Below, one piece after another: positions 48,392 through 64,000 of a DNA stretch of 64,000 nt. The stretch is taken from the NCBI GenBank assembly GCA_964016885.1, contig CAXHJY010000739.1:69780-133779 (forward strand), read 5' to 3'. This stretch comes from Eledone cirrhosa (taxonomy: Eukaryota). The notes beneath the pieces are model-generated. The model was not told the origin of the DNA. It made no database searches and saw nothing but the letters and a program-made list of their open reading frames with translations. Both the position numbers and the translations under genes were made by a program. The first letter of the stretch is position 1; each line of letters begins with the position of its first letter.

Positions 48392-48600
48392 ATATAAGTA
48401 TGTACACGTACATACATATATGTATACCGACGTACAGTAGTATGTATATATATATATATACATACATGCACACATATATACATGCACGTATGGATTCACC
48501 GAACATTTATTATAATGCTCGGTGTGTTTGTAAACAAACATCCCGTATTAAGCCGTAGTGTCTAGCAACCACCGTTGCTCGTTTGTTCAACACTGACAAA

Positions 48601-48656
48601 GGAACGCTGTACTAGTTTCAAGCTTGTTCAGCTATCGTCAGCAACGTATACCTTCC
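48601..48656 (-). ncRNA. Type I hammerhead ribozyme (representative of 4 minus-strand copies at ~48600, 49025, 49450, 49875)
   Basis: Reverse complement of the motif above: GGAACGCTGTACTAGTTTCAAGCTTGTT(C)AGCTATCGTCAGCAACGTATACCTTCC. Confidence 0.8.
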
Positions 48657-50313
48657 TGCCAGATTGTTGAACGTATATACTTACCTTATGCATATTAACG
48701 GCTGAGTAGCCCAATATGCATATCGAGTGGGTTAATCGGCCGGGTGCACCGAAAACGATAAACGGAAAAAATGAAACGATATTTCATTTCCCACTCTTAG
48801 TACGGTCGTTACTTAAATATAAGTATGTACACGTACATACATATATGTATACCGACGTACAGTAGTATGTATATATATATATATACATACATGCACACAT
48901 ATATACATGCACGTATGGATTCACCGAACATTTATTATAATGCTCGGTGTGTTTGTAAACAAACATCCCGTATTAAGCCGTAGTGTCTAGCAACCACCGT
49001 TGCTCGTTTGTTCAACACTGACAAAGGAACGCTGTACTAGTTTCAAGCTTGTTAGCTATCGTCAGCAACGTATACCTTCCTGCCAGATTGTTGAACGTAT
49101 ATACTTACCTTATGCATATTAACGGCTGAGTAGCCCAATATGCATATCGAGTGGGTTAATCGGCCGGGTGCACCGAAAACGATAAACGGAAAAAATGAAA
49201 CGATATTTCATTTCCCACTCTTAGTACGGCTGTTACTTAAATATAAGTATGTACACGTACATACATATATGTATACCGACGTACAGTAGTATGTATATAT
49301 ATATATATACATACATGCACACATATATACATGCACGTATGGATTCACCGAACATTTATTATAATGCTCGGTTGTGTTTGTAAACAAACATCCGTATTAA
49401 GCCGTAGTGTCTAGCAACCACCGTTGCTCGTTTGTTCAACACTGACCAAAGGAACGCTGTACTAGTTTCAAGCTTGTTAGCTATCGTCAGCACGTATACC
49501 TTCCTGCCAGATTGTTGAACGTATATACTTACCTTATGCATATTAACGGCTGAGTAGCCCAATATGCATATCGAGTGGGTTAATCGGCCGGGTGCACCGA
49601 AAACGATTAAACGGAAAAAATGAAACGATATTTCATTTCCCACTCTTAGTACGGCTGTTACTTAAATATAAGTATGTACACGTACATACATATATGTATA
49701 CCGACGTACAGTAGTATGTATATATATATATATACATACATGCACACATATATACATGCACGTATGGATTCACCGAACATTTATTATAATGCTCGGTGTG
49801 TTTGTAAACAAACATCCCGTATTAAGCCGTAGTGTCTAGCAACCACCGTTGCTCGTTTGTTCAACACTGACAAAGGAACGCTGTACTAGTTTCAAGCTTG
49901 TTAGCTATCGTCAGCAACGTATACCTTCCTGCCAGATTGTTGAACGTATATACTTACCTTATGCATATTAACGGCTGGTTGCTAGACACTACGGCTTAAT
50001 ACGGGATGTTTGTTTACAAACACACCGAGCATTATAATAAATGTTCGGTGAATCCATACGTGCATGTATATATGTGTGCATGTATGTATATATATATATA
50101 TACATACTACTGTACGTCGGTATACATATATGTATGTACGTGTACATACTTATATTTAAGTAACAGCCGTACTAAGAGTGGGAAATGAAATATCGTTTCA
50201 TTTTTTCGTTTATCGTTTTCGGTGCACCCGGCCGATTACCCACTCGATATGCATATTGGGCTACTCAGCCGTTAATATGCATAAGGTAAGTATATACGTT
50301 CAACAATCTGGCA

Positions 50314-50368
50314 GGAAGGTATACGTTGCTGACGATAGCTAACAAGCTTGAAACTAGTACAGCGTTCC
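50314..50368 (+). ncRNA. Type I hammerhead ribozyme (representative; 12 plus-strand copies every ~424 bp up to ~55035)
   Basis: Stem I CGUUG (50324-28)/CAGCG (50360-64) extended by GGAA/UUCC across a bulge; core CUGACGA (50329-35); stem II AGCU-aaca-AGCU; GAAA (50350-53); stem III AC-ua-GU; predicted cleavage after GUA at 50359. Confidence 0.85.
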
Positions 50369-53300
50369 TTTGTCAGTGTTGAACAAACGAGCAACGTGGT
50401 TGCTAGACACTACGGCTTAATACGGGATGTTTGTTTACAAACACACCGAGCATTATAATAAATGTTCGGTGAATCCATACGTGCATGTATATATGTGTGC
50501 ATGTATGTATATATATATATATACATACTACTGTACGTCGGTATACATATATGTATGTACGTGTACATACTTATATTTAAGTAACAGCCGTACTAAGAGT
50601 GGGAAATGAAATATCGTTTCATTTTTTCCGTTTATCGTTTTCGGTGCACCCGGCCGATTAACCCACTCGATATGCATATTGGGCTACTCAGCCGTTAATA
50701 TGCATAAGGTAAGTATATACGTTCAACAATCTGGCAGGAAGGTATACGTTGCTGACGATAGCTAACAAGCTTGAAACTAGTACAGCGTTCCTTTGTCAGT
50801 GTTGAACAAACGAGCAACGGTGGTTGCTAGACACTACGGCTTAATACGGGATGTTTGTTTACAAACACACCGAGCATTATAATAAATGTTCGGTGAATCC
50901 ATACGTGCATGTATATATGTGTGCATGTATGTATATATATATATATACATACTACTGTACGTCGGTATACATATATGTATGTACGTGTACATACTTATAT
51001 TTAAGTAACAGCCGTACTAAGAGTGGGAAATGAAATATCGTTTCATTTTTTCCGTTTATCGTTTTCGGTGCACCCGGCCGATTAACCCACTCGATATGCA
51101 TATTGGGCTACTCAGCCGTTAATATGCATAAGGTAAGTATATACGTTCAACAATCTGGCAGGAAGGTATACGTTGCTGACGATAGCTAACAAGCTTGAAA
51201 CTAGTACAGCGTTCCTTTGTCAGTGTTGAACAAACGAGCAACGGTGGTTGCTAGACACTACGGCTTAATACGGGATGTTTGTTTACAAACACACCGAGCA
51301 TTATAATAAATGTTCGGTGAATCCATACGTGCATGTATATATGTGTGCATGTATGTATATATATATATATACATACTACTGTACGTCGGTATACATATAT
51401 GTATGTACGTGTACATACTTATATTTAAGTAACAGCCGTACTAAGAGTGGGAAATGAAATATCGTTTCATTTTTTCCGTTTATCGTTTTCGGTGCACCCG
51501 GCCGATTAACCCACTCGATATGCATATTGGGCTACTCAGCCGTTAATATGCATAAGGTAAGTATATACGTTCAACAATCTGGCAGGAAGGTATACGTTGC
51601 TGACGATAGCTAACAAGCTTGAAACTAGTACAGCGTTCCTTTGTCAGTGGTTGAACAAACGAGCAACGGGTGGTTGCTAGACACTACGGCTTAATACGGG
51701 ATGTTTGTTTACAAACACACCGAGCATTATAATAAATGTTCGGTGAATCCATACGTGCATGTATATATGTGTGCATGTATGTATATATATATATATACAT
51801 ACTACTGTACGTCGGTATACATATATGTATGTACGTGTACATACTTATATTTAAGTAACAGCCGTACTAAGAGTGGGAAATGAAATATCGTTTCATTTTT
51901 TCCGTTTATCGTTTTCGGTGCACCCGGCCGATTAACCCACTCGATATGCATATTGGGCTACTCAGCCGTTAATATCGCATAAGGTAAGTATATACGTTCA
52001 ACAATCTGGCAGGAAGGTATACGTTGCTGACGATAGCTAACAAGCTTGAAACTAGTACAGCGTTCCTTTGTCAGTGTTGAACAAACGAGCAACGGTGGTT
52101 GCTAGACACTACGGCTTAATACGGGATGTTTGTTTACAAACACACCGAGCATTATAATAAATGTTCGGTGAATCCATACGTGCATGTATATATGTGTGCA
52201 TGTATGTATATATATATATATACATACTACTGTACGTCGGTATACATATATGTAGTACGTGTACATACTTATATTTAAGTAACAGCCGTACTAAGAGTGG
52301 GAAATGAAATATCGTTTCATTTTTTCCGTTTATCGTTTTCCGGTGCACCGGCCGATTAACCCACTCGATATGCATATTGGGCTACTCAGCCGTTAATATG
52401 CATAAGGTAAGTATATACGTTCAACAATCTGGCAGGAAGGTATACGTTGCTGACGATAGCTAACAAGCTTGAAACTAGTACAGCGTTCCTTTGTCAGTGT
52501 TGAACAAACGAGCAACGGTGGTTGCTAGACACTACGGCTTAATACGGGATGTTTGTTTACAAACACACCGAGCATTATAATAAATGTTCGGTGAATCCAT
52601 ACGTGCATGTATATATGTGTGCATGTATGTATATATATATATATACATACTACTGTACGTCGGTATACATATATGTATGTACGTGTACATACTTATATTT
52701 AAGTAACAGCCGTACTAAGAGTGGGAAATGAAATATCGTTTCATTTTTTCCGTTTATCGTTTTCGGTGCACCCCGGCCGATTAACCCACTCGATATGCAT
52801 ATTGGGCTACTCAGCCGTTAATATGCATAAGGTAAGTATATACGTTCAACAATCTGGCAGGAAGGTATACGTTGCTGACGATAGCTAACAAGCTTGAAAC
52901 TAGTACAGCGTTCCTTTGTCAGTGTTGAACAAACGAGCAACGGTGGTTGCTAGACACTACGGCTTAATACGGGATGTTTGTTTACAAACACACCGAGCAT
53001 TATAATAAATGTTCGGTGAATCCATACGTGCATGTATATATGTGTGCATGTATGTATATATATATATATACATACTACTGTACGTCGGTATACATATATG
53101 TATGTACGTGTACATACTTATATTTAAGTAACAGCCGTACTAAGAGTGGGAAATGAATATCGTTTCATTTTTTTCCGTTTATCGTTTTCGGTGCACCCGG
53201 CCGATTAACCCACTCGATATGCATATTGGGCTACTCAGCCGTTAATATGCATAAGGTAAGTATATACGTTCAACAATCTGGCAGGAAGGTATACGTTGCT

Positions 53301-55299
53301 GACGATAGCTAACAAGCTTGAAACTAGTACAGCGTTCCTTTGTCAGTGTTGAACAAACGAGCAACGGTGGTTGCTAGACACTACGGCTTAATACGGGATG
53401 TTTGTTTACAAACACACCGAGCATTATAATAAATGTTCGGTGAATCCATACGTGCATGTATATATGTGTGCATGTATGTATATATATATATATACATACT
53501 ACTGTACGTCGGTATACATATATGTATGTACGTGTACATACTTATATTTAAGTAACAGCCGTACTAAGAGTGGGAAATGAAATATCGTTTCATTTTTTCC
53601 GTTTATCGTTTTCGGGTGCACCCGGCCGATTAACCCACTCGATATGCATATTGGGCTACTCAGCCGTTAATATGCATAAGGTAAGTATATACGTTCAACA
53701 ATCTGGCAGGAAGGTATACGTTGCTGACGATAGCTAACAAGCTTGAAACTAGTACAGCGTTCCTTTGTCAGTGTTGAACAAACGAGCAAACGGTGGTTGC
53801 TAGACACTACGGCTTAATACGGGATGTTTGTTTACAAACACACCGAGCATTATAATAAATGTTCGGTGAATCCATACGGGCATGTATATATGTGTGCATG
53901 TATGTATATATATATATATACATACTACTGTACGTCGGTATACATATATGTATGTACGTGTACATACTTATATTTAAGTAACAGCCGTACTAAGAGTGGG
54001 AAACTGAAATATCGTTTCATTTTTTCCGTTTATCGTTTTCGGTGCACCCGGCCGATTAACCCCACTCGATATGCATATTGGGCTACTCAGCCGTTAATAT
54101 GCATAAGGTAAGTATATCGTTCAACAATCTGGCAGGAAGGTATACGTTGCTGACGATAGCTTAACAAGCTTGAAACTAGTACAGCGTTCCTTTGTCAGTG
54201 TTGAACAAACGAGCAACGGTGGTTGCTAGGACACTACGGCTTAATACGGGATGTTTGTTTACAAACACACCGAGCATTATAATAAATGTTCGGTGATACG
54301 TGCATGTATATATGTGTGCATGTATGTATATATATATATATACATACTACTGTACGTCGGTATACATATATGTATGTACGTGTACATACTTATATTTAAG
54401 TAACAGCCGTACTAAGAGTGGGAAATGAAATATCGTTTCATTTTTTCCGTTTATCGTTTTCGGTGCACCCGGCCGATTAACCCACTCGATATGCATATTG
54501 GGCTACTCAGCCGTTAATATGCATAAGGTAAGTATATACGTTCAACAATCTGGCAGGAAGGTATACGTTGCTGACGATAGCTAACAAGCTTGAAACTAGT
54601 ACAGCGTTCCTTTGTCAGTGTTGAACAAACGAGCAACGGTGGTTGCTAGACACTACGGCTTAATACGGGATGTTTGTTTACAAACACACCGAGCATTATA
54701 ATAAATGTTCGGTGAATCCATACGTGCATGTATATATGTGTGCATGTATGTATATATATATATATACATACTACTGTACGTCGGTATACATATATGTATG
54801 TACGTGTACATACTTATATTTAAGTAACAGCCGTACTAAGAGTGGGAAATGAAATATCGTTTCATTTTTTCCGTTTATCGTTTTCGGTGCACCCGGCCGA
54901 TTAACCCACTCGATATGCATATTGGGCTACTCAGCCGTTAATATGCATAAGGTAAGTATATACGTTCAACAATCTGGCAGGAAGGTATACGTTGCTGACG
55001 ATAGCTAACAAGCTTGAAACTAGTACAGCGTTCCTTTGTCAGTGTTGAACAAACGAGCAACGGTGGTTGCTAGACACTACGGCTTAATACGGGATGTTTG
55101 TTTACAAACACACCGAGCATTATAATAAATGTTCGGTGAATCCATACGTGCATGTATATATGTGTGCATGTATGTATATATATATATATACATACTACTG
55201 TACGTCGGTATACATATATGTATGTACGTGTACATACTTATATTTAAGTAACAGCCGTACTAAGAGTGGGAAATGAAATATCGTTTCATTTTTTCCGTT

Positions 55300-55330
<31 letters not shown>

Positions 55331-55359: not shown

Positions 55360-57776
55360 TTTACTCTTTTACTCTTTTACCTGTTTCAGCCATCCGGCTG
55401 AGGCCATGCTGGGGCACCGCCCTTGTTGCTACACATTTTATCTCCAGCCTGTATAGGTTGGCCACTGGTGTAGGAGGGAGTTTGTTGCTGCTGCCCTTAG
55501 GTTTCCCTCGTGTCTTGCTGTGGGCTCATCCGGGATCCTGGATAACAAGGTGTCGAGATGTTTCTTAAAGACATCCACCTCCACGTCATGCAAGTCTCGC
55601 AGATGCCTCGGCAGCCTGTTGAAGAGTTGAGGGCCCTTGAATCCCAGGCTATTGCAATACCTGCTCCTTATTCTAGATGTGGAAGACGGGACCTTTGGCA
55701 CCACACAGTGACGTCCTGTTCGACGGTTGGTCCAGCTCCCAATGCCAAAGTTTGGTGCTAGTCCCTCCAGGATTTTCCACATGTAGATCACTGCGTATCT
55801 CTCCCGTCTTCGCTCCAAGGAGTAGAGGTTCAGTTCCTTCAGCCTCTCCCAGTAGCTTGTCTCCCTCATCTTGGCAATCCTCTTGGTGTAGCTTCGCTGG
55901 ATTGCCTCAAGCTCTGTGGTTAGTTTGACACTATGGGGTGACCACAGCTGGGAGCAGTAGTCCAGGCGGCTTAGGACAAAAGTCCTCCACAGTGTCAACA
56001 TGGTGTCTCGATCTCTTGTAAGGAAAGTCCTCAAGATCCAGCCAGCGAATCGTCTACATGCTGTCGCCACCTTCATGATGTGTGAAGAAAAAGATGCATC
56101 ATCGCTCATGTCTATGCCCAGGTCTCGTATCGATTTTGACACGGGGATATCGGTCCCTCCTGGTCCTGTGTAGCTGTGTTCCGCTATATTTGTGTTTGTG
56201 TTTGCAGGTTTGTATTGTAGGGCTTGGAATTTGCCAGCATTAAACTGCATGTTGTTTTCTTCCGCCCATCTGTATATGGCATCCAGATCCTGCTGTAAGA
56301 GGGCAGCGTCAGCCGGGTTATTGATTGCCTGTGCTACCTTAGTGTCATCAGCATAGCTAGTGAGGGATGTTGTTGCATGCACCACAGAGGGCATGTCCGA
56401 GAGAGCCACCAAAAACAGTAGTGGTCCCAGGACTGTCCCCTGAGGCACCCCACTTGTTATCGGTGTTTCCCTCGAGAGGGCCCCATTTGCTGCGACTGCC
56501 TGGCTTCTGTCCCTCAGGAAGCCATGCAGCCACTCACCTACTTTTCCAGTTATGCCGAGTCCGTGTAGTTTGTGACATATCATTCCGTGGTCGACCTTGT
56601 CAAAGGCCTTCGCAAAGTCAAGATATATCACGTCTACATGTGAGCTGTCTAGTAGCTGTCTCAGTACCCAGTCGTAGTGATGTAGCAGCTGTGTAAGGCA
56701 GCTTCTTCCTGGGCGGAAGCCATGTTGCGTGCTAGTCAGGCGGTCATTTTCTTCGAGGAAAGTGATTAGTTTCTTTCTGACGACTCGCTCCATGACCTTA
56801 CTGATATGCGACGTCAGGGAGACTGGCCTATAGTTCTTGGCCTCCGCTCTACTACCTCCTTTATGGATAGGGCATATTGTGCCTTCTTTCAGCTCCCTGG
56901 GTAGTACACCGCTAGCCAAGGAGCTTCTGAAGAGCATCTTCAGTGGAGTTGCTAAGGCCCGCTTACATATTTTTAGGAGAACTGCTGGGAATCCATCAGG
57001 TCCAGCAGCCGAGTCTGTTCTAATTTCATCAATGGCGTACACCACATCCTCCTCCGTTATGTCTATGTGGTTGATGGTTGCCATTTCTTGATGTAGTGTT
57101 GTGGCATCAAAGAACTCCTCTGGCTTCGTTATTTGCATGTGCCTCAGTGGACATGTGAAGACACTTTTGTACTGTTCGTTCAGTATTTCACATATCTCTT
57201 GGGGATTTTCGGTTAATGAACCGTCCGTGTGGAAGAGTGGTCCAATCTTGCAGTGTACTGAGGCAGTTTCTTTTGCAAATTTAAAGAAGGCCTTAGGGTT
57301 TGTTTTAATGTTTTCTATGGCCCTGTTCTCTTTCCTTGCCCTCTCATTCTCATGTGAAAGCTTGAGTGCAATCTCGGTGTCAAGTAGTGCACGTTTCAAA
57401 TAGGATTCCTTCTTGTTTTGGTTTTGTTGACTATTCAACTGGTTTGAGAGTTTAGTTCTACGTCTCATAAGGATTTTCCTATCTCTGGGAATAAGATTTT
57501 TGTGTCTGTTTGCCTCTTTCTCCGGGACACACTTTTTGCATATGGTGTGTATCGTTGTCATGAAGTGTTGAAATTGTGTGTTAGTGTCTTGTGTGGCGAT
57601 GTTTGCACTCCATGTTTGCTTCCGGATTTCACTCTTAATCTTCTTCCAGTCAGCCCCGTAGAAGTTAAGGCTGGATAGCGTCCCGGAGCTTCTTGGTGGT
57701 TTTGTCTCTGTTGGTTCTCTTGGACCACATATCATTAGCTCTACCAAGTTATGATCCGAGAGAATTGTTGTATTGT
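55360..57776 (-). mobile_element. CR1-clade LINE, 5'-truncated, RT reading frame intact
   Basis: Open frame from SDHNLV (end of APE) through [48 protein letters not shown] and YADDTK to the stop at 55438. Ends in a (GAGTAAAA)n tail, with (TA)n on both sides. Confidence 0.95.
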
Positions 57777-57799
57777 ATACATATATATATATATATATG

Positions 57800-57844
<45 letters not shown>

Positions 57845-57867
57845 ATATATATATATATATGTATATG

Positions 57868-57899
<32 letters not shown>

Positions 57900-57907
57900 T
57901 GTATATG

Positions 57908-57939
<32 letters not shown>

Positions 57940-57947
57940 TGTATATG

Positions 57948-57994
<47 letters not shown>

Positions 57995-57995
57995 G

Positions 57996-58030
<35 letters not shown>

Positions 58031-58043
58031 GTATATATATATG

Positions 58044-58074
<31 letters not shown>

Positions 58075-58075
58075 G

Positions 58076-58110
<35 letters not shown>

Positions 58111-58123
58111 GTATATATATATG

Positions 58124-58154
<31 letters not shown>

Positions 58155-58167
58155 GTATATATATATG

Positions 58168-58198
<31 letters not shown>

Positions 58199-58199
58199 G

Positions 58200-58230
<31 letters not shown>

Positions 58231-58274
58231 GTATATATGTATGTATATATATATGTATATATATATGTATATAC

Positions 58275-58305
<31 letters not shown>

Positions 58306-58375
58306 TATATATATGTATATATATATGTATATACATATATATATATATATGTATATATATATGTATATATATATG

Positions 58376-58428
<53 letters not shown>
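57777..58428. repeat. (TA)n/(TATG) microsatellite
   Basis: Direct reading. Confidence 0.95.
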
Positions 58429-59308
58429 GTCGTTTCTGAATTTGTTTAGCAAGATTCTTTATCTGAAATCGTGTGTTGAAACCGATATTGTTATACTTTG
58501 GGAGGGTCATGTTGCCAATAAGAAACACACGCACCAGTTGCTTTCACTTCAATTTAATTTAATATATATTTATAAATTTACAAATTTATAAATTTCTGGT
58601 TGGTTGGTTGGTTCCACAACCAGATAGTTGTTTATATATATATATAGTCATAGTTCTTTCGTCACACACTCATAGAAATAAAAATAGAATCCACACACAA
58701 GAAAGACGCAATGTTTAGGCAAATTACAGAGGCAGTAAGCATAAAAGAATTAAAACCAAAATTAAATAGAAAATATGAGTGGAACAGCAACATCACAACT
58801 TACAATTAAGGACAAAATGAAAACACACACACACATAGAACAAACAACTTACAATTGAAAACACACACAAAATGAAAACACACACAAGACAAAATGAAAA
58901 CACACACACACATAGAACAAACAACCAACCAACAATAAATAAATAAATAAACAAACAAATATAAATAGAAAAATAGAAAAATGAACACAAACACACACAG
59001 ACACCCGGATGTGGCGCATGCGCAAACTGAGCACGCAACCCACACACAAACAAAATGGCGTAGGATAGAAGAAAGGAAAGGCACAGAAACGAAGAAAGAA
59101 ATCCCCAGTCACTGAAGAGGTCACAGAGTGTGTGACGAAAGAACTATGACTATATATATATATAAACAACTATCTGGTTGTGGAACCAACCAACCAGAAA
59201 TTTATAAATTTGTAAATTTATAAATATATATTAAATTAAATTGAAGTGAAAGCAACTGGTGCGTGTGTTTCTTATTGGCAACATGACCCTCCCAAAGTAT
59301 AACAATAT
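58429..59308 (+). mobile_element. Penelope-like pseudo-LTR remnant with an inverted partial copy at its 5' side
   Basis: 58485-58671 is an almost perfect inverted copy of 59126-59308. It contains a minimal hammerhead followed by a putative ORF start ([20 protein letters not shown] in the longer left arm). Flanked by (TA)n. Confidence 0.75.
59107..59151 (+). ncRNA. Minimal type I hammerhead ribozyme (Penelope-type)
   Basis: AGUCA-CUGAAGA-g-GUCAC-agagugu-GUGAC-GAAA-G-aa-CUA^UGACU: stem I AGUCA/UGACU, 5-6 bp stem II, 2-bp stem III, predicted cut after 59146. Confidence 0.8.
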
Positions 59309-62136
<2,828 letters not shown>

Positions 62137-64000
62137 AAAAACTTTGAAATGTTTTGGCCAGTATTGGCCCAGGCCATGTCTAACTTAATAGCACCACCTG
62201 GCGAAGTCTTTCAATTCAGGATTTGGGCACCATGGCCCATTCGAGAAGAGAATTACTGTTTGCGGAGACATATCCGGGTGTGGGTGGTTTGTCCGGGATT
62301 ACTTGGAGGAATTTGTCCAAAGACTTCTTGAATCTTGTGTGGTCAGTTTCTGTTTTGACGTGTCCTGGTGTGATGTTGAAGAGAGCAGGGCCGATTGAGG
62401 TGAAATAATTGTGCCGTATTGTTGTTATGAGTTGCGATTTAGATTTTTGAATGGGACGGATAGCACGGGGCCCAAGCCTTGGGTGTATCTTGAAGGCGAT
62501 GCCAACATCATTTGGGCAGTGATGATGGAACATTTTCCACATCATGCAGATAATATAACGCTCACGGCGACGTTGGAGTGAGTAAAGTTTCAGGTTTTCC
62601 AATCGACCCCAGTAGTCAAGGTCTGACATGCCATCTATCTTTTTCGTGATTGCCCTTTGAGGAGCTTCAAGTTTCATGATACTTTGTTTCGTGTGGGGAG
62701 ACCACAGTGGACAACAGTATTCAAGGTGTGGTCGGGCGAAAGTAGAGAAGAGAAGGATAATGGTGCGGGAATCTCTCGACTGGAAGGTTCTGAGGATCCA
62801 GGAACACATTCTGCGGGCCATGTCAACTTTGCTGCTTATATGCGTGGTCCAGCTTATGTTGCTGTCCACGGTTACTCCCAAGTCTCTGATGTTGTTAGAT
62901 GCCACGAGAGTTTCCCCGGAGGGAGGGAGTACGGGAGTTTCAGAGCATCCTCTTTTCCAAAGTGGATCAGTTCGAATTTGTCTTCGTTCAGTAACATGTT
63001 GTTCTTTTCTGCCCATTGGGTAACAGCCAGTAGGTCTGACTGAAGGCTTATCCGGTCATCCACGCCATTGATGACCTTTTGGAGCTTGGAATCATCAGCG
63101 AAAATTTTAATGTTGCTGTGTTTGATGATGTCAGTGATGTCATTAATATAGATGATGAAGAGAAGTGGGCCCAACACAGTGCCTTGTGGGACTCCACTAC
63201 TGACTTTGGCTGGGCTTGATTTGACTCCCTCAACTACAACATGTTGGGTTCTGTTTGACAGGAAGCTCTTGATCCACTGCAGCAGCTTTCCAGTGACACC
63301 AATATTGGACAGCTTTCTCAGTAGAATGTTATGATCAACCTGTCAAAGGCCTTGCTGAAATCAAGGTAGATAACATCAGTGTTGGAACCCTCTCCCAAGG
63401 CTCTCAAAATGTCATCAAAGTGATGCAGTAGTTGCGTCAGGCAATCCCTTCCATTACGGAATCCATGCTGGTTGGAGTTCAGCATATTGTTACTCTCAAG
63501 GAAGTGGGTCATTCGCGATCTCACCACTCGCTCAAATACCTTAATGATATGAGAGGTGAGTGAGATTGGACGGTAATTCACGGCAAGGGATTTGTTTCCC
63601 TTTTTGAAAACTGGACAACAGACTGGGATAGAAGGTTTTCTGGCACATATCCAGCATCCAGTGAGTTCCGCCACAGATTGGCAAGAGGAGAAGCAAGTTG
63701 GTGTTGACACGCCTTCAAGACACAAGCAGGGAACCTATCGGGACCTACTGCTGAATTATGTTTGATTTCCTTTATTGCCGCCAAGACATCAGGGGCGCCA
63801 AACGTTATGTCCGATAAGGTGTAATGGGGAGTAACATCGCCGATACAGCCCAGATCGGCCATATCAGGATTGCTGAAAACAGAGCAGTATTGTTTCTGCA
63901 GTATCTCACCCATGGTTTTAGCATTGTCTTGAAGAGTGCCATTTTCATCAATTAGAGGGCCAACAGTAGAGCCAGTGATTTTGTGTTTTTTTTGCAAATG
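62137..64000 (-). mobile_element. Second CR1-clade LINE (different family), 3' part, frameshifted, runs off the right edge
   Basis: AVGPDRFP, NYRPISLTSH, QHGFRNGRDCL, YLDFSKAFD, LGPLLF, FADDSK, RPHLEYCCPLWSP and LYSLQRRRERY across several frames. The 3' end abuts (TA)n. Confidence 0.93.

What the first reader, a model, noticed from the sequence alone, without database searches (positions are those of the whole stretch)
58429..59308. Penelope-type pLTR remnant with its own hammerhead mirrors the retrozyme architecture: candidate mobilising partner
Seen: a ~185-bp near-perfect inverted repeat around a 455-bp spacer, a well-formed minimal hammerhead at 59107-59151, an inverted arm that begins inside stem II of that hammerhead, and TA tracts on both sides with ATAT overlap at 59308. 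Known: Penelope-like elements carry minimal type I hammerheads in their pseudo-LTRs, often have an inverted truncated pLTR at the 5' side, and have been proposed as the autonomous partners of non-LTR retrozymes. Inference: the shared divergent-inversion layout and TA target suggest the same RT/GIY-YIG machinery inserted both.
Basis: partly seen in the sequence, partly recalled or inferred. Interest (0 to 1): 0.7.

Follow-up and report, generated by a model that had tools for sequence, protein, structure and literature searches.

The report
Two-armed Penelope insertion beside a retrozyme
This is a short, mirror-shaped fragment of a very abundant Penelope-type jumping gene that still has intact copies in the genome; a neighbouring ribozyme repeat lands with the same pair of fixed ends, so it is likely moved by this class of enzymes, though not necessarily by this family.

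Summary
Observation confirmed. The 880-bp piece is a 5'-truncated, two-armed insertion of a high-copy Penelope-like element (26,134 exact hits of a 27-mer). Its spacer encodes the last 45 residues of the endonuclease. [16 protein letters not shown] starts an intact 1,265-aa RT + GIY-YIG ORF elsewhere in the genome, with Neptune/Nematis-type motifs. The arms are not TIRs. Copies end at two fixed sites 60 nt apart, and 42 of 44 inverted pairs use one site per arm. Rare A-to-G hypermutated copies carry the same changes on both arms, suggesting one RNA template. The 424-bp retrozyme shows the same rule: two sites 59-60 nt apart, and 34 of 35 typed partners of a long end are short ends. This supports Penelope-type mobilisation, a link already proposed in print. 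It does not single out this family. Fourteen other TA-inserting families share the layout (offsets 34-100 nt, one also 60), Hydra-type Penelope ORFs coexist, I found no convincing homology, and no hybrid appeared in 66 junctions. The scan had already noted the two-ended retrozyme pattern (including this array) and the edited copies on other DNA.

The parts
57776..58429 (.). left (TA)n/(TATG) microsatellite target tract
58430..58671 (-). inverted arm: element positions about -164 to the long end (about +82 to +86 from the ORF ATG, which lies at 58510 on the minus strand)
58430..58484 (-). one-sided tail between the short (+26) and long (+86) end sites; encodes ORF residues about 10-27
58672..58809 (+). 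last 45 codons and stop of the RT/GIY-YIG ORF (IEIKIEST...NITTYN*), identical to the C terminus of the intact ORF in L148
58810..59282 (+). non-coding pLTR (3' UTR of one unit and leader of the next)
59107..59151 (+). minimal type I hammerhead motif, predicted cleavage after 59146; cleavage untested
59283..59308 (+). ORF start (MTLPKYNN) ending at the fixed short end, +26, with ATAT overlap to the target
59309..62138 (.). right (TA)n/(TATG) microsatellite tract
48392..49977 (-). comparator: 424-bp retrozyme array, inverted arm ending at unit position 179 (short end)
49976..55302 (+). comparator: 424-bp retrozyme array, direct arm ending at unit position 238 (long end)

Best explanation
The 880-bp piece is a truncated, two-armed copy of an abundant Penelope-like retrotransposon with Neptune/Nematis-type protein motifs, likely made when both cut strands of a TA microsatellite primed reverse transcription of one RNA at two fixed internal sites, and the neighbouring 424-bp retrozyme is likely inserted by the same class of enzyme. 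Shown: family identity, intact ORFs, two fixed 3' ends 60 nt apart with one used per arm, TA targets, and the same rule in the retrozyme. Inferred: the GIY-YIG domain nicks both strands; each 3' end pairs with a short AUAU-like stretch of the RNA at +26 or +86; two cDNAs are made, stop at random points and are joined head to head; the second cDNA must displace the first, because both arms cover the same RNA stretch. The hammerhead does not define the ends (they lie about 162 and 222 nt downstream of its predicted cut). Whether this family, rather than one of the co-resident Hydra-type families, is the retrozyme's helper is open; I put it at about 0.35-0.4.
For: 26,134 exact hits, 0 for the reversed control. 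Intact 1,265-aa ORF from MTLPK in L148 and a 1,329-codon open frame in the tandem L131, among 20 read-through loci. Pfam GIY-YIG and RVT_1 matches in RT-then-EN order. In 69 loci plus the window: 124 of 128 ends are short (63 at exactly +26) or long (52 at exactly +86); 42 of 44 divergent pairs are short+long; 115 of 124 ends run into TA. Retrozyme: 14 of 16 fully typed pairs short+long; of 60 loci picked by a long end, 34 of 35 typed partners are short ends. Both arms share A-to-G changes in three insertions: 38 of 40, 25 of 29, 70 of 70 sites. In L091 neither arm contains the other, which rules out simple fold-back copying there. A purified Poseidon PLE initiates at two internal sites that bracket the tail (PMC11167929).
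Against: RVT_1 scores are below Pfam's cut-off, GIY-YIG passes only in L032 (22.7 vs 22.6 bits; 21.8 in L148), and the full-length protein gave no Pfam hit. No tree with named PLE references was built. About half of the insertions are single-armed (40 unpaired ends; 23 of 60). Shared edits could come from an already edited source locus or from conversion between arms; the fully edited motif occurs only at the four arms of L040 and L091, which argues against a spreading edited master but does not exclude conversion. In L159/L160 both arms start at the same position, as fold-back would also give. Near L157 a separate fragment carried 14 T-to-C changes and shared none of the edits. PMC11167929 reports initiation at sites not homologous to the cut DNA, whereas ends here overlap the target by 2-5 nt. 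The tail is 60 nt, not the 30-40 nt described (PMC8557442). Loci were chosen by a pattern just inside the short end, so earlier ends could be seen only as partners.
Confidence: 0.8

Rival explanations
1. One reading: this very family is the autonomous partner of the 424-bp retrozyme.
For: End spacing is 60 nt here and 59 nt (young) or 60 nt (older subfamily) in the retrozyme, while only 1 of 14 other families has 60. Both families have very young copies. Intact ORFs exist. A 15-nt stretch matches at 14 positions in both tails (2 of 1,000 shuffles). In both, the ends lie far from the hammerhead (162 and 218 nt), against about 25-45 nt in three hammerhead-bearing families read by eye.
Against: The 15-nt match sits at the long end in the PLE but 21 nt before it in the retrozyme, which ends there 8 times against 409 at its own long end. 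It falls to 13 of 15 in older retrozyme copies. In a like-for-like test it is no better than matches to other PLE families (9 of 300 shuffles, versus 2 and 9 of 300 for two others; older retrozyme 122 of 300). No hybrid in 30 PLE and 36 retrozyme single-arm junctions. Predicted folds around the ends differ. Sense-strand A-T skew is +0.45 versus -0.03.
Confidence: 0.37
2. The retrozyme is moved by another TA-targeting PLE, most plausibly a Hydra-type family, and the 59/60 match is chance.
For: ORFs with RWR, DKT and CxCX5C motifs occur in many loci (motifs from PMC8557442 section 11). Two are linked to hammerhead-bearing pLTRs with their own two ends (L069, L038). One unrelated family also has a 60-nt offset (L128). 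Hydra 3' UTRs are T-rich, closer to the retrozyme's composition than the A-rich pLTR here.
Against: No Hydra pLTR examined is homologous to the retrozyme (4 fragments only). The two ORF-linked Hydra families have offsets of 90 and 91-94 nt.
Confidence: 0.4
3. One arm is a fold-back or post-insertion copy of the other (hairpin second strand, or conversion), not a second priming event.
For: Arms share private variants; L159/L160 has a symmetric junction.
Against: In the window and in L034, L038, L067, L089 and L091 the arm that reaches further 5' has the short end and the other arm extends 60 nt beyond it, so neither can be templated wholly on the other. Fixed short+long pairing (42 of 44) is not expected from conversion.
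Confidence: 0.1
4. A DNA transposon or MITE with terminal inverted repeats, or an assembly artefact.
For: Near-perfect inverted arms in a TA target; long-read-type indel errors nearby.
Against: Arm lengths vary from under 30 nt to over 3 kb, the arms differ by a fixed tail, the interior is RT/GIY-YIG coding sequence, and the pattern recurs at dozens of independent loci.
Confidence: 0.01

Closest known systems
Canonical C-terminal EN+ Penelope-like elements, Neptune/Nematis type (PMC8557442; passages and section 11 read)
   Same: Single ORF with RT then GIY-YIG; CX2-5CxxC linker (CIDKKCITC); two Cys inside the GIY-YIG core plus His pair; partial tandems forming pLTRs; inverted 5'-truncated copy; one-sided tail; hammerhead in pLTR; microsatellite target.
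   Different: Tail 60 nt rather than 30-40; DKS for DKG; long Asn-rich insert, ORF 1,265 aa; strict one-short/one-long pairing is quantified here. Neptune versus Nematis not separated.
Poseidon element PAc of Anolis (PMC11167929; main text read)
   Same: Two internal initiation sites just inside the ORF start bracket the tail; hammerhead does not set the ends; AT-rich target.
   Different: PAc is Penelope/Poseidon clade; its initiation was reported without homology to the target, while ends here overlap TA by 2-5 nt; no two-arm pairing rule or retrozyme test in the parts I read.
Animal non-LTR retrozymes (PMC7229834, passages; bioRxiv 10.64898/2026.07.22.740005, main text)
   Same: Non-coding tandem units with a type I hammerhead; PLEs proposed as mobilisers.
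   Different: Those papers argue from co-occurrence, hammerhead type and pLTR homology (24 of 57 Xenopus families). Here the evidence is the insertion scar, and the 424-bp unit shows no convincing homology to this pLTR.
L1 twin priming (recalled, no paper read)
   Same: Second nicked strand primes a second cDNA on the same RNA, giving an inversion.
   Different: As recalled, the L1 inverted part does not overlap the direct part and primes at chance sites; here both arms cover the same stretch and start at two fixed sites.

Membership tests
EN+ Penelope-like element | single ORF with RT and GIY-YIG endonuclease | tested here: met
   Intact 1,265-aa ORF; GIY-YIG 22.7 bits in L032 (cut-off 22.6) and 21.8 in L148; RVT_1 E 9e-5, below cut-off
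EN+ Penelope-like element | RT groups with PLE/telomerase RTs in a tree | not tested
   No named reference PLE sequences were available; 95 relatives were mostly unnamed
EN+ Penelope-like element | partial tandems forming pLTRs | tested here: met
   L148 unit 4,272 bp with upstream partial copy; L131 tandem with 4,423-bp spacing
EN+ Penelope-like element | inverted 5'-truncated copy and one-sided tail | tested here: met
   44 divergent pairs, 42 short+long; tail 60 nt, longer than the 30-40 described
EN+ Penelope-like element | minimal type I hammerhead in the pLTR | tested here: met
   Motif present and conserved; Rfam no hit
EN+ Penelope-like element | hammerhead self-cleavage | not testable with these tools
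   Needs a cleavage assay; minimal PLE hammerheads are weak in vitro (PMC4209133)
Neptune/Nematis clades | CX2-5CxxC linker before a C-terminal GIY-YIG with CCHH | tested here: met
   CIDKKCITC, then VVYSIRCTEGQC...IYIG and HAKIEH, read in P0002 against motifs
Neptune versus Nematis | RT phylogeny; reduced linker in Nematis | tested here: inconclusive
   Motifs alone do not separate them; 'Neptune-type' is a working label
Hydra clade | RWK, DKT, CxCX5C linker, no CCHH, under 3 kb | tested here: not met
   P0002 has DKS, CX4CXXC, CCHH and a 4.3-kb unit
Naiad/Chlamys | N-terminal GIY-YIG | tested here: not met
   EN is C-terminal
Penelope/Poseidon clade | no CX2-5CxxC linker | tested here: not met
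   Linker present
DNA transposon/MITE | fixed-length terminal inverted repeats, no RT | tested here: not met
Non-LTR retrozyme (424-bp unit) | non-coding tandem units each with a type I hammerhead | tested here: met
Non-LTR retrozyme (424-bp unit) | expressed as self-cleaved circular RNA | not testable with these tools
   No RNA data laid
Helper/non-autonomous pair (this PLE and the 424-bp unit) | shared insertion signature | tested here: met
   but shared with 14 other families
Helper/non-autonomous pair (this PLE and the 424-bp unit) | pLTR homology or shared recognition sequence | tested here: not met
Helper/non-autonomous pair (this PLE and the 424-bp unit) | hybrid insertions | tested here: inconclusive
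   0 of 66 single-arm junctions; too few to exclude rare hybrids

The most novel reading that the evidence does not exclude
This intact Neptune-type protein is the retrozyme's helper and integrates by obligate double initiation: two RTs copy one RNA, linear or circular, from two sites set about 60 nt apart. The retrozyme would have kept that spacing through 20% sequence divergence without sharing sequence with the helper, and RNA-edited copies act as natural single-molecule barcodes of the reaction.
Probability: 0.3. Interest if true: 0.72.

Novelty: new member of a known kind. Interest (0 to 1): 0.48.

Why it matters
How Penelope-like elements make their tandem/inverted insertions, and what moves animal retrozymes, are stated open questions (PMC8557442, PMC7229834, bioRxiv 2026.07.22.740005). 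This locus leads to an intact candidate enzyme and base-level predictions: initiation at +26 and +86 on its own RNA, and at unit positions 179 and 238 on the retrozyme RNA. These can be tested in the published in vitro assay (PMC11167929). The element itself is an ordinary fragment of a known class.

Tried and rejected
Rfam found no hammerhead: the whole-window list showed only microsatellite-driven miRNA hits in the 150 rows printed of 478, and the 251-nt scan none. PDB sequence search gave only E 0.82. RNA evidence: no RNA holder listed; no reads laid. The shared 15-nt motif as a common initiation signal was rejected. 'Inversion starts inside stem II' as meaningful was rejected. A genome-wide search for PLE/retrozyme hybrids was not achieved; only junction samples were read. 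No A-to-G hypermutation was seen in 176 retrozyme alignments from 46 loci. The first TA-flank clustering was swamped by simple repeats and redone with masking. In one search, nine retrozyme pairs had an end the script did not type, mostly because it stopped at an internal TA run near position 152; they are left out of the 14 of 16. L112 was dropped as the continuation of L111. No structure prediction, complex prediction or tree was run.

Full report
Observation. The arms are 58485-58671 and 59126-59308, identical but for a 4-nt indel, around a 454-nt spacer. The left arm continues to about 58430. A minimal type I hammerhead motif lies at 59107-59151. It has the short helix I, unpaired base before helix II and reduced helix III described for PLE hammerheads (PMC4209133, parts 1-2 of 4 read). 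Rfam does not detect it and its fold is not more stable than shuffles (z -1.3). TA/TATG tracts flank the piece.

What it is. A 27-mer at the putative ORF start has 13,088 + 13,046 exact hits in the 3.0-Gb own genome and none for the reversed control. Of the first 100 listed places, 31 adjacent pairs lie within 6.5 kb: 28 divergent, 2 tandem, 1 convergent. Longer relatives encode an RT followed by a GIY-YIG domain. A read-through pattern has 452 hits. Of 20 stretches fetched, L148 holds an intact 1,265-aa ORF starting [16 protein letters not shown], and L131 a 1,329-codon open frame in a tandem with 4,423-bp spacing; most others are broken or cut by the locus edge. The window's spacer begins with the last 45 codons of this ORF, identical to L148. 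Pfam support is modest: GIY-YIG at about the cut-off, RVT_1 below it, nothing for the whole protein. The motifs (linker CX4CXXC, CCHH, C-terminal EN) fit Neptune or Nematis and not Penelope/Poseidon, Hydra or Naiad (PMC8557442, passages and section 11); I built no tree. The closest named relative is an Octopus vulgaris hypothetical RT protein at 69%, so the host is probably an octopod; this is inference.

Ends. In one locus for each of the 69 clusters plus the window, 128 ends were typed: 64 short (63 at +26), 60 long (52 at +86), 3 read-through, 1 other. Of 44 divergent pairs, 42 are short+long, 1 long+long and 1 long+read-through; 40 ends are unpaired; 115 of 124 ends run into TA. The loci were picked with a pattern just inside the short end, which biases against earlier ends. 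Inversion points are scattered, so the start inside helix II is chance. The ends lie about 162 and 222 nt past the hammerhead's predicted cut. This agrees with the Anolis Poseidon protein, which initiates at two internal sites that bracket the tail and does not need hammerhead cleavage (PMC11167929, parts 1-2 of 4 read). That paper reports no homology to the target; here both sites overlap TA by a few bases.

One RNA or two. Four of 268 alignments to the intact copy were dominated by sense-strand A-to-G changes, none by T-to-C, G-to-A or C-to-T; they are the two arms of L040 and of L091. The arms share 38 of 40 and 25 of 29 changed sites. The two loci differ at 20 non-A/G positions of 395, so they are likely separate events. 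The fully edited motif occurs only at these four arms; a looser motif at 11 places, against 0 for the T-to-C control. One further insertion shares 70 of 70 sites, but has a symmetric junction that fold-back would also give. A separate fragment near L157 carried 14 T-to-C changes and shared none. I read the changes as ADAR editing of the template (inference; the neighbour bias is weak). In L091 neither arm contains the other, so both were likely copied from the same RNA. The window's own copy is not edited.

The retrozyme. Its hammerhead core has 2,826 exact hits. Ends fall at unit positions 179 and 238; the spacing is 59 nt in young and 60 nt in older copies that are about 80% identical. In 38 loci picked by the hammerhead, 25 divergent pairs were found: 14 short+long, 1 long+long, 1 short+short, 9 with an untyped end. 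In 60 further loci picked by a long end, 30 had an inverted arm ending at 172-182, 4 a tiny inverted short end, 1 an arm ending at 243, 2 ran off the locus and 23 were single. The signature is therefore the same, and so is the inversion rate, roughly half.

Why this does not name the helper. Among 1,019 TA flanks from L031-L130 and the window, 14 other families showed divergent pairs with unequal ends, offsets 34-100 nt, one of them 60 (a single pair). Several loci hold Hydra-type PLE ORFs; two are linked to hammerhead-bearing pLTRs with offsets of 90 and 91-94. A second retrozyme-like array, L060, has the same layout with a 37-nt offset. A 14-of-15 match between the two tails looked promising, but the retrozyme ends at that site 8 times against 409, older copies match 13 of 15, and other PLE families score as well. 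No hybrid was found in 30 PLE and 36 retrozyme single-arm junctions. The spacing match raises this family above the others; I put it at about 0.37.

Literature. PLEs were proposed as retrozyme mobilisers from co-occurrence and hammerhead type (PMC7229834, passages) and argued from distribution and pLTR homology (bioRxiv 10.64898/2026.07.22.740005, parts 1-3 of 5 read; supplements not seen). Inverted copies, tails and TA targeting are standard PLE features (PMC8557442). In six searches of the held library I saw no listing that reports the short+long pairing in retrozymes or editing-barcoded PLE arms; most listed papers were seen only as titles and abstract starts, and subscription papers are not covered. 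Earlier notes of this scan describe both patterns on other DNA of this genome and on this array. They are not independent support; I had reached both readings before looking.

Verdict. An ordinary fragment of a new Neptune/Nematis-type PLE family. Its value is that it leads to an intact enzyme and exact predictions for a retrozyme-mobilisation test. Class-level partnership is likely (about 0.85); the specific partnership is unproven.

Noticed in passing
L040 (G000:C1:2085000-2093000), L091 (C1:18411700-18415400), L159/L160 (C22:15.91 Mb), L157, L158: Sense-strand A-to-G hypermutated copies of this PLE; both arms share the changes in three insertions.
   Followed up: yes
L060:100-1300: Second retrozyme-like family: 312-bp unit with a hammerhead motif, tandem plus inverted arm, ends 37 nt apart; tail sequence shared with another TA-inserting cluster.
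   Followed up: partly
L036:6711-8178, L039:5106-6695, L059, L069, L070, L038, L101: Several Hydra-type PLE ORFs (RWR, DKT, CxCX5C). L069's pLTR has a hammerhead-like motif with a changed core base.
   Followed up: partly
TA flanks of L031-L130: At least 14 further TA-inserting families with two ends 34-100 nt apart; many have a CTC...GAG hairpin just after the short end.
   Followed up: partly
L122:1690-2317: Retrozyme inserted into another family's copy outside a TA tract, with an apparent 7-12 nt target duplication.
   Followed up: no
L058:4743-6351: A Poseidon-like RT fragment abuts the Neptune-type arm on the same strand; template switch or nested insertion.
   Followed up: no
L042/L043 (C1:13.32-13.34 Mb): Two 3.9-kb inverted arms 99.8% identical, about 4 kb apart, with another inverted duplication beside them; real or misassembled.
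   Followed up: no
G000:C1:132947043-132947576: Twelve copies of the ORF-start read-through motif at 46-bp spacing: a minisatellite born from the tail region.
   Followed up: no
window 55438-57775 (-) and 62216-63342 (-): Open RT frames of 5'-truncated LINE-like elements on both sides of the TA tracts; class named from recall only.
   Followed up: no
window 48392-55302: Fifteen near-full units on both arms share 3 non-majority variants and differ at only 2 of 312 columns, as expected from repeated copying of one monomer or from a homogeneous source array.
   Followed up: partly
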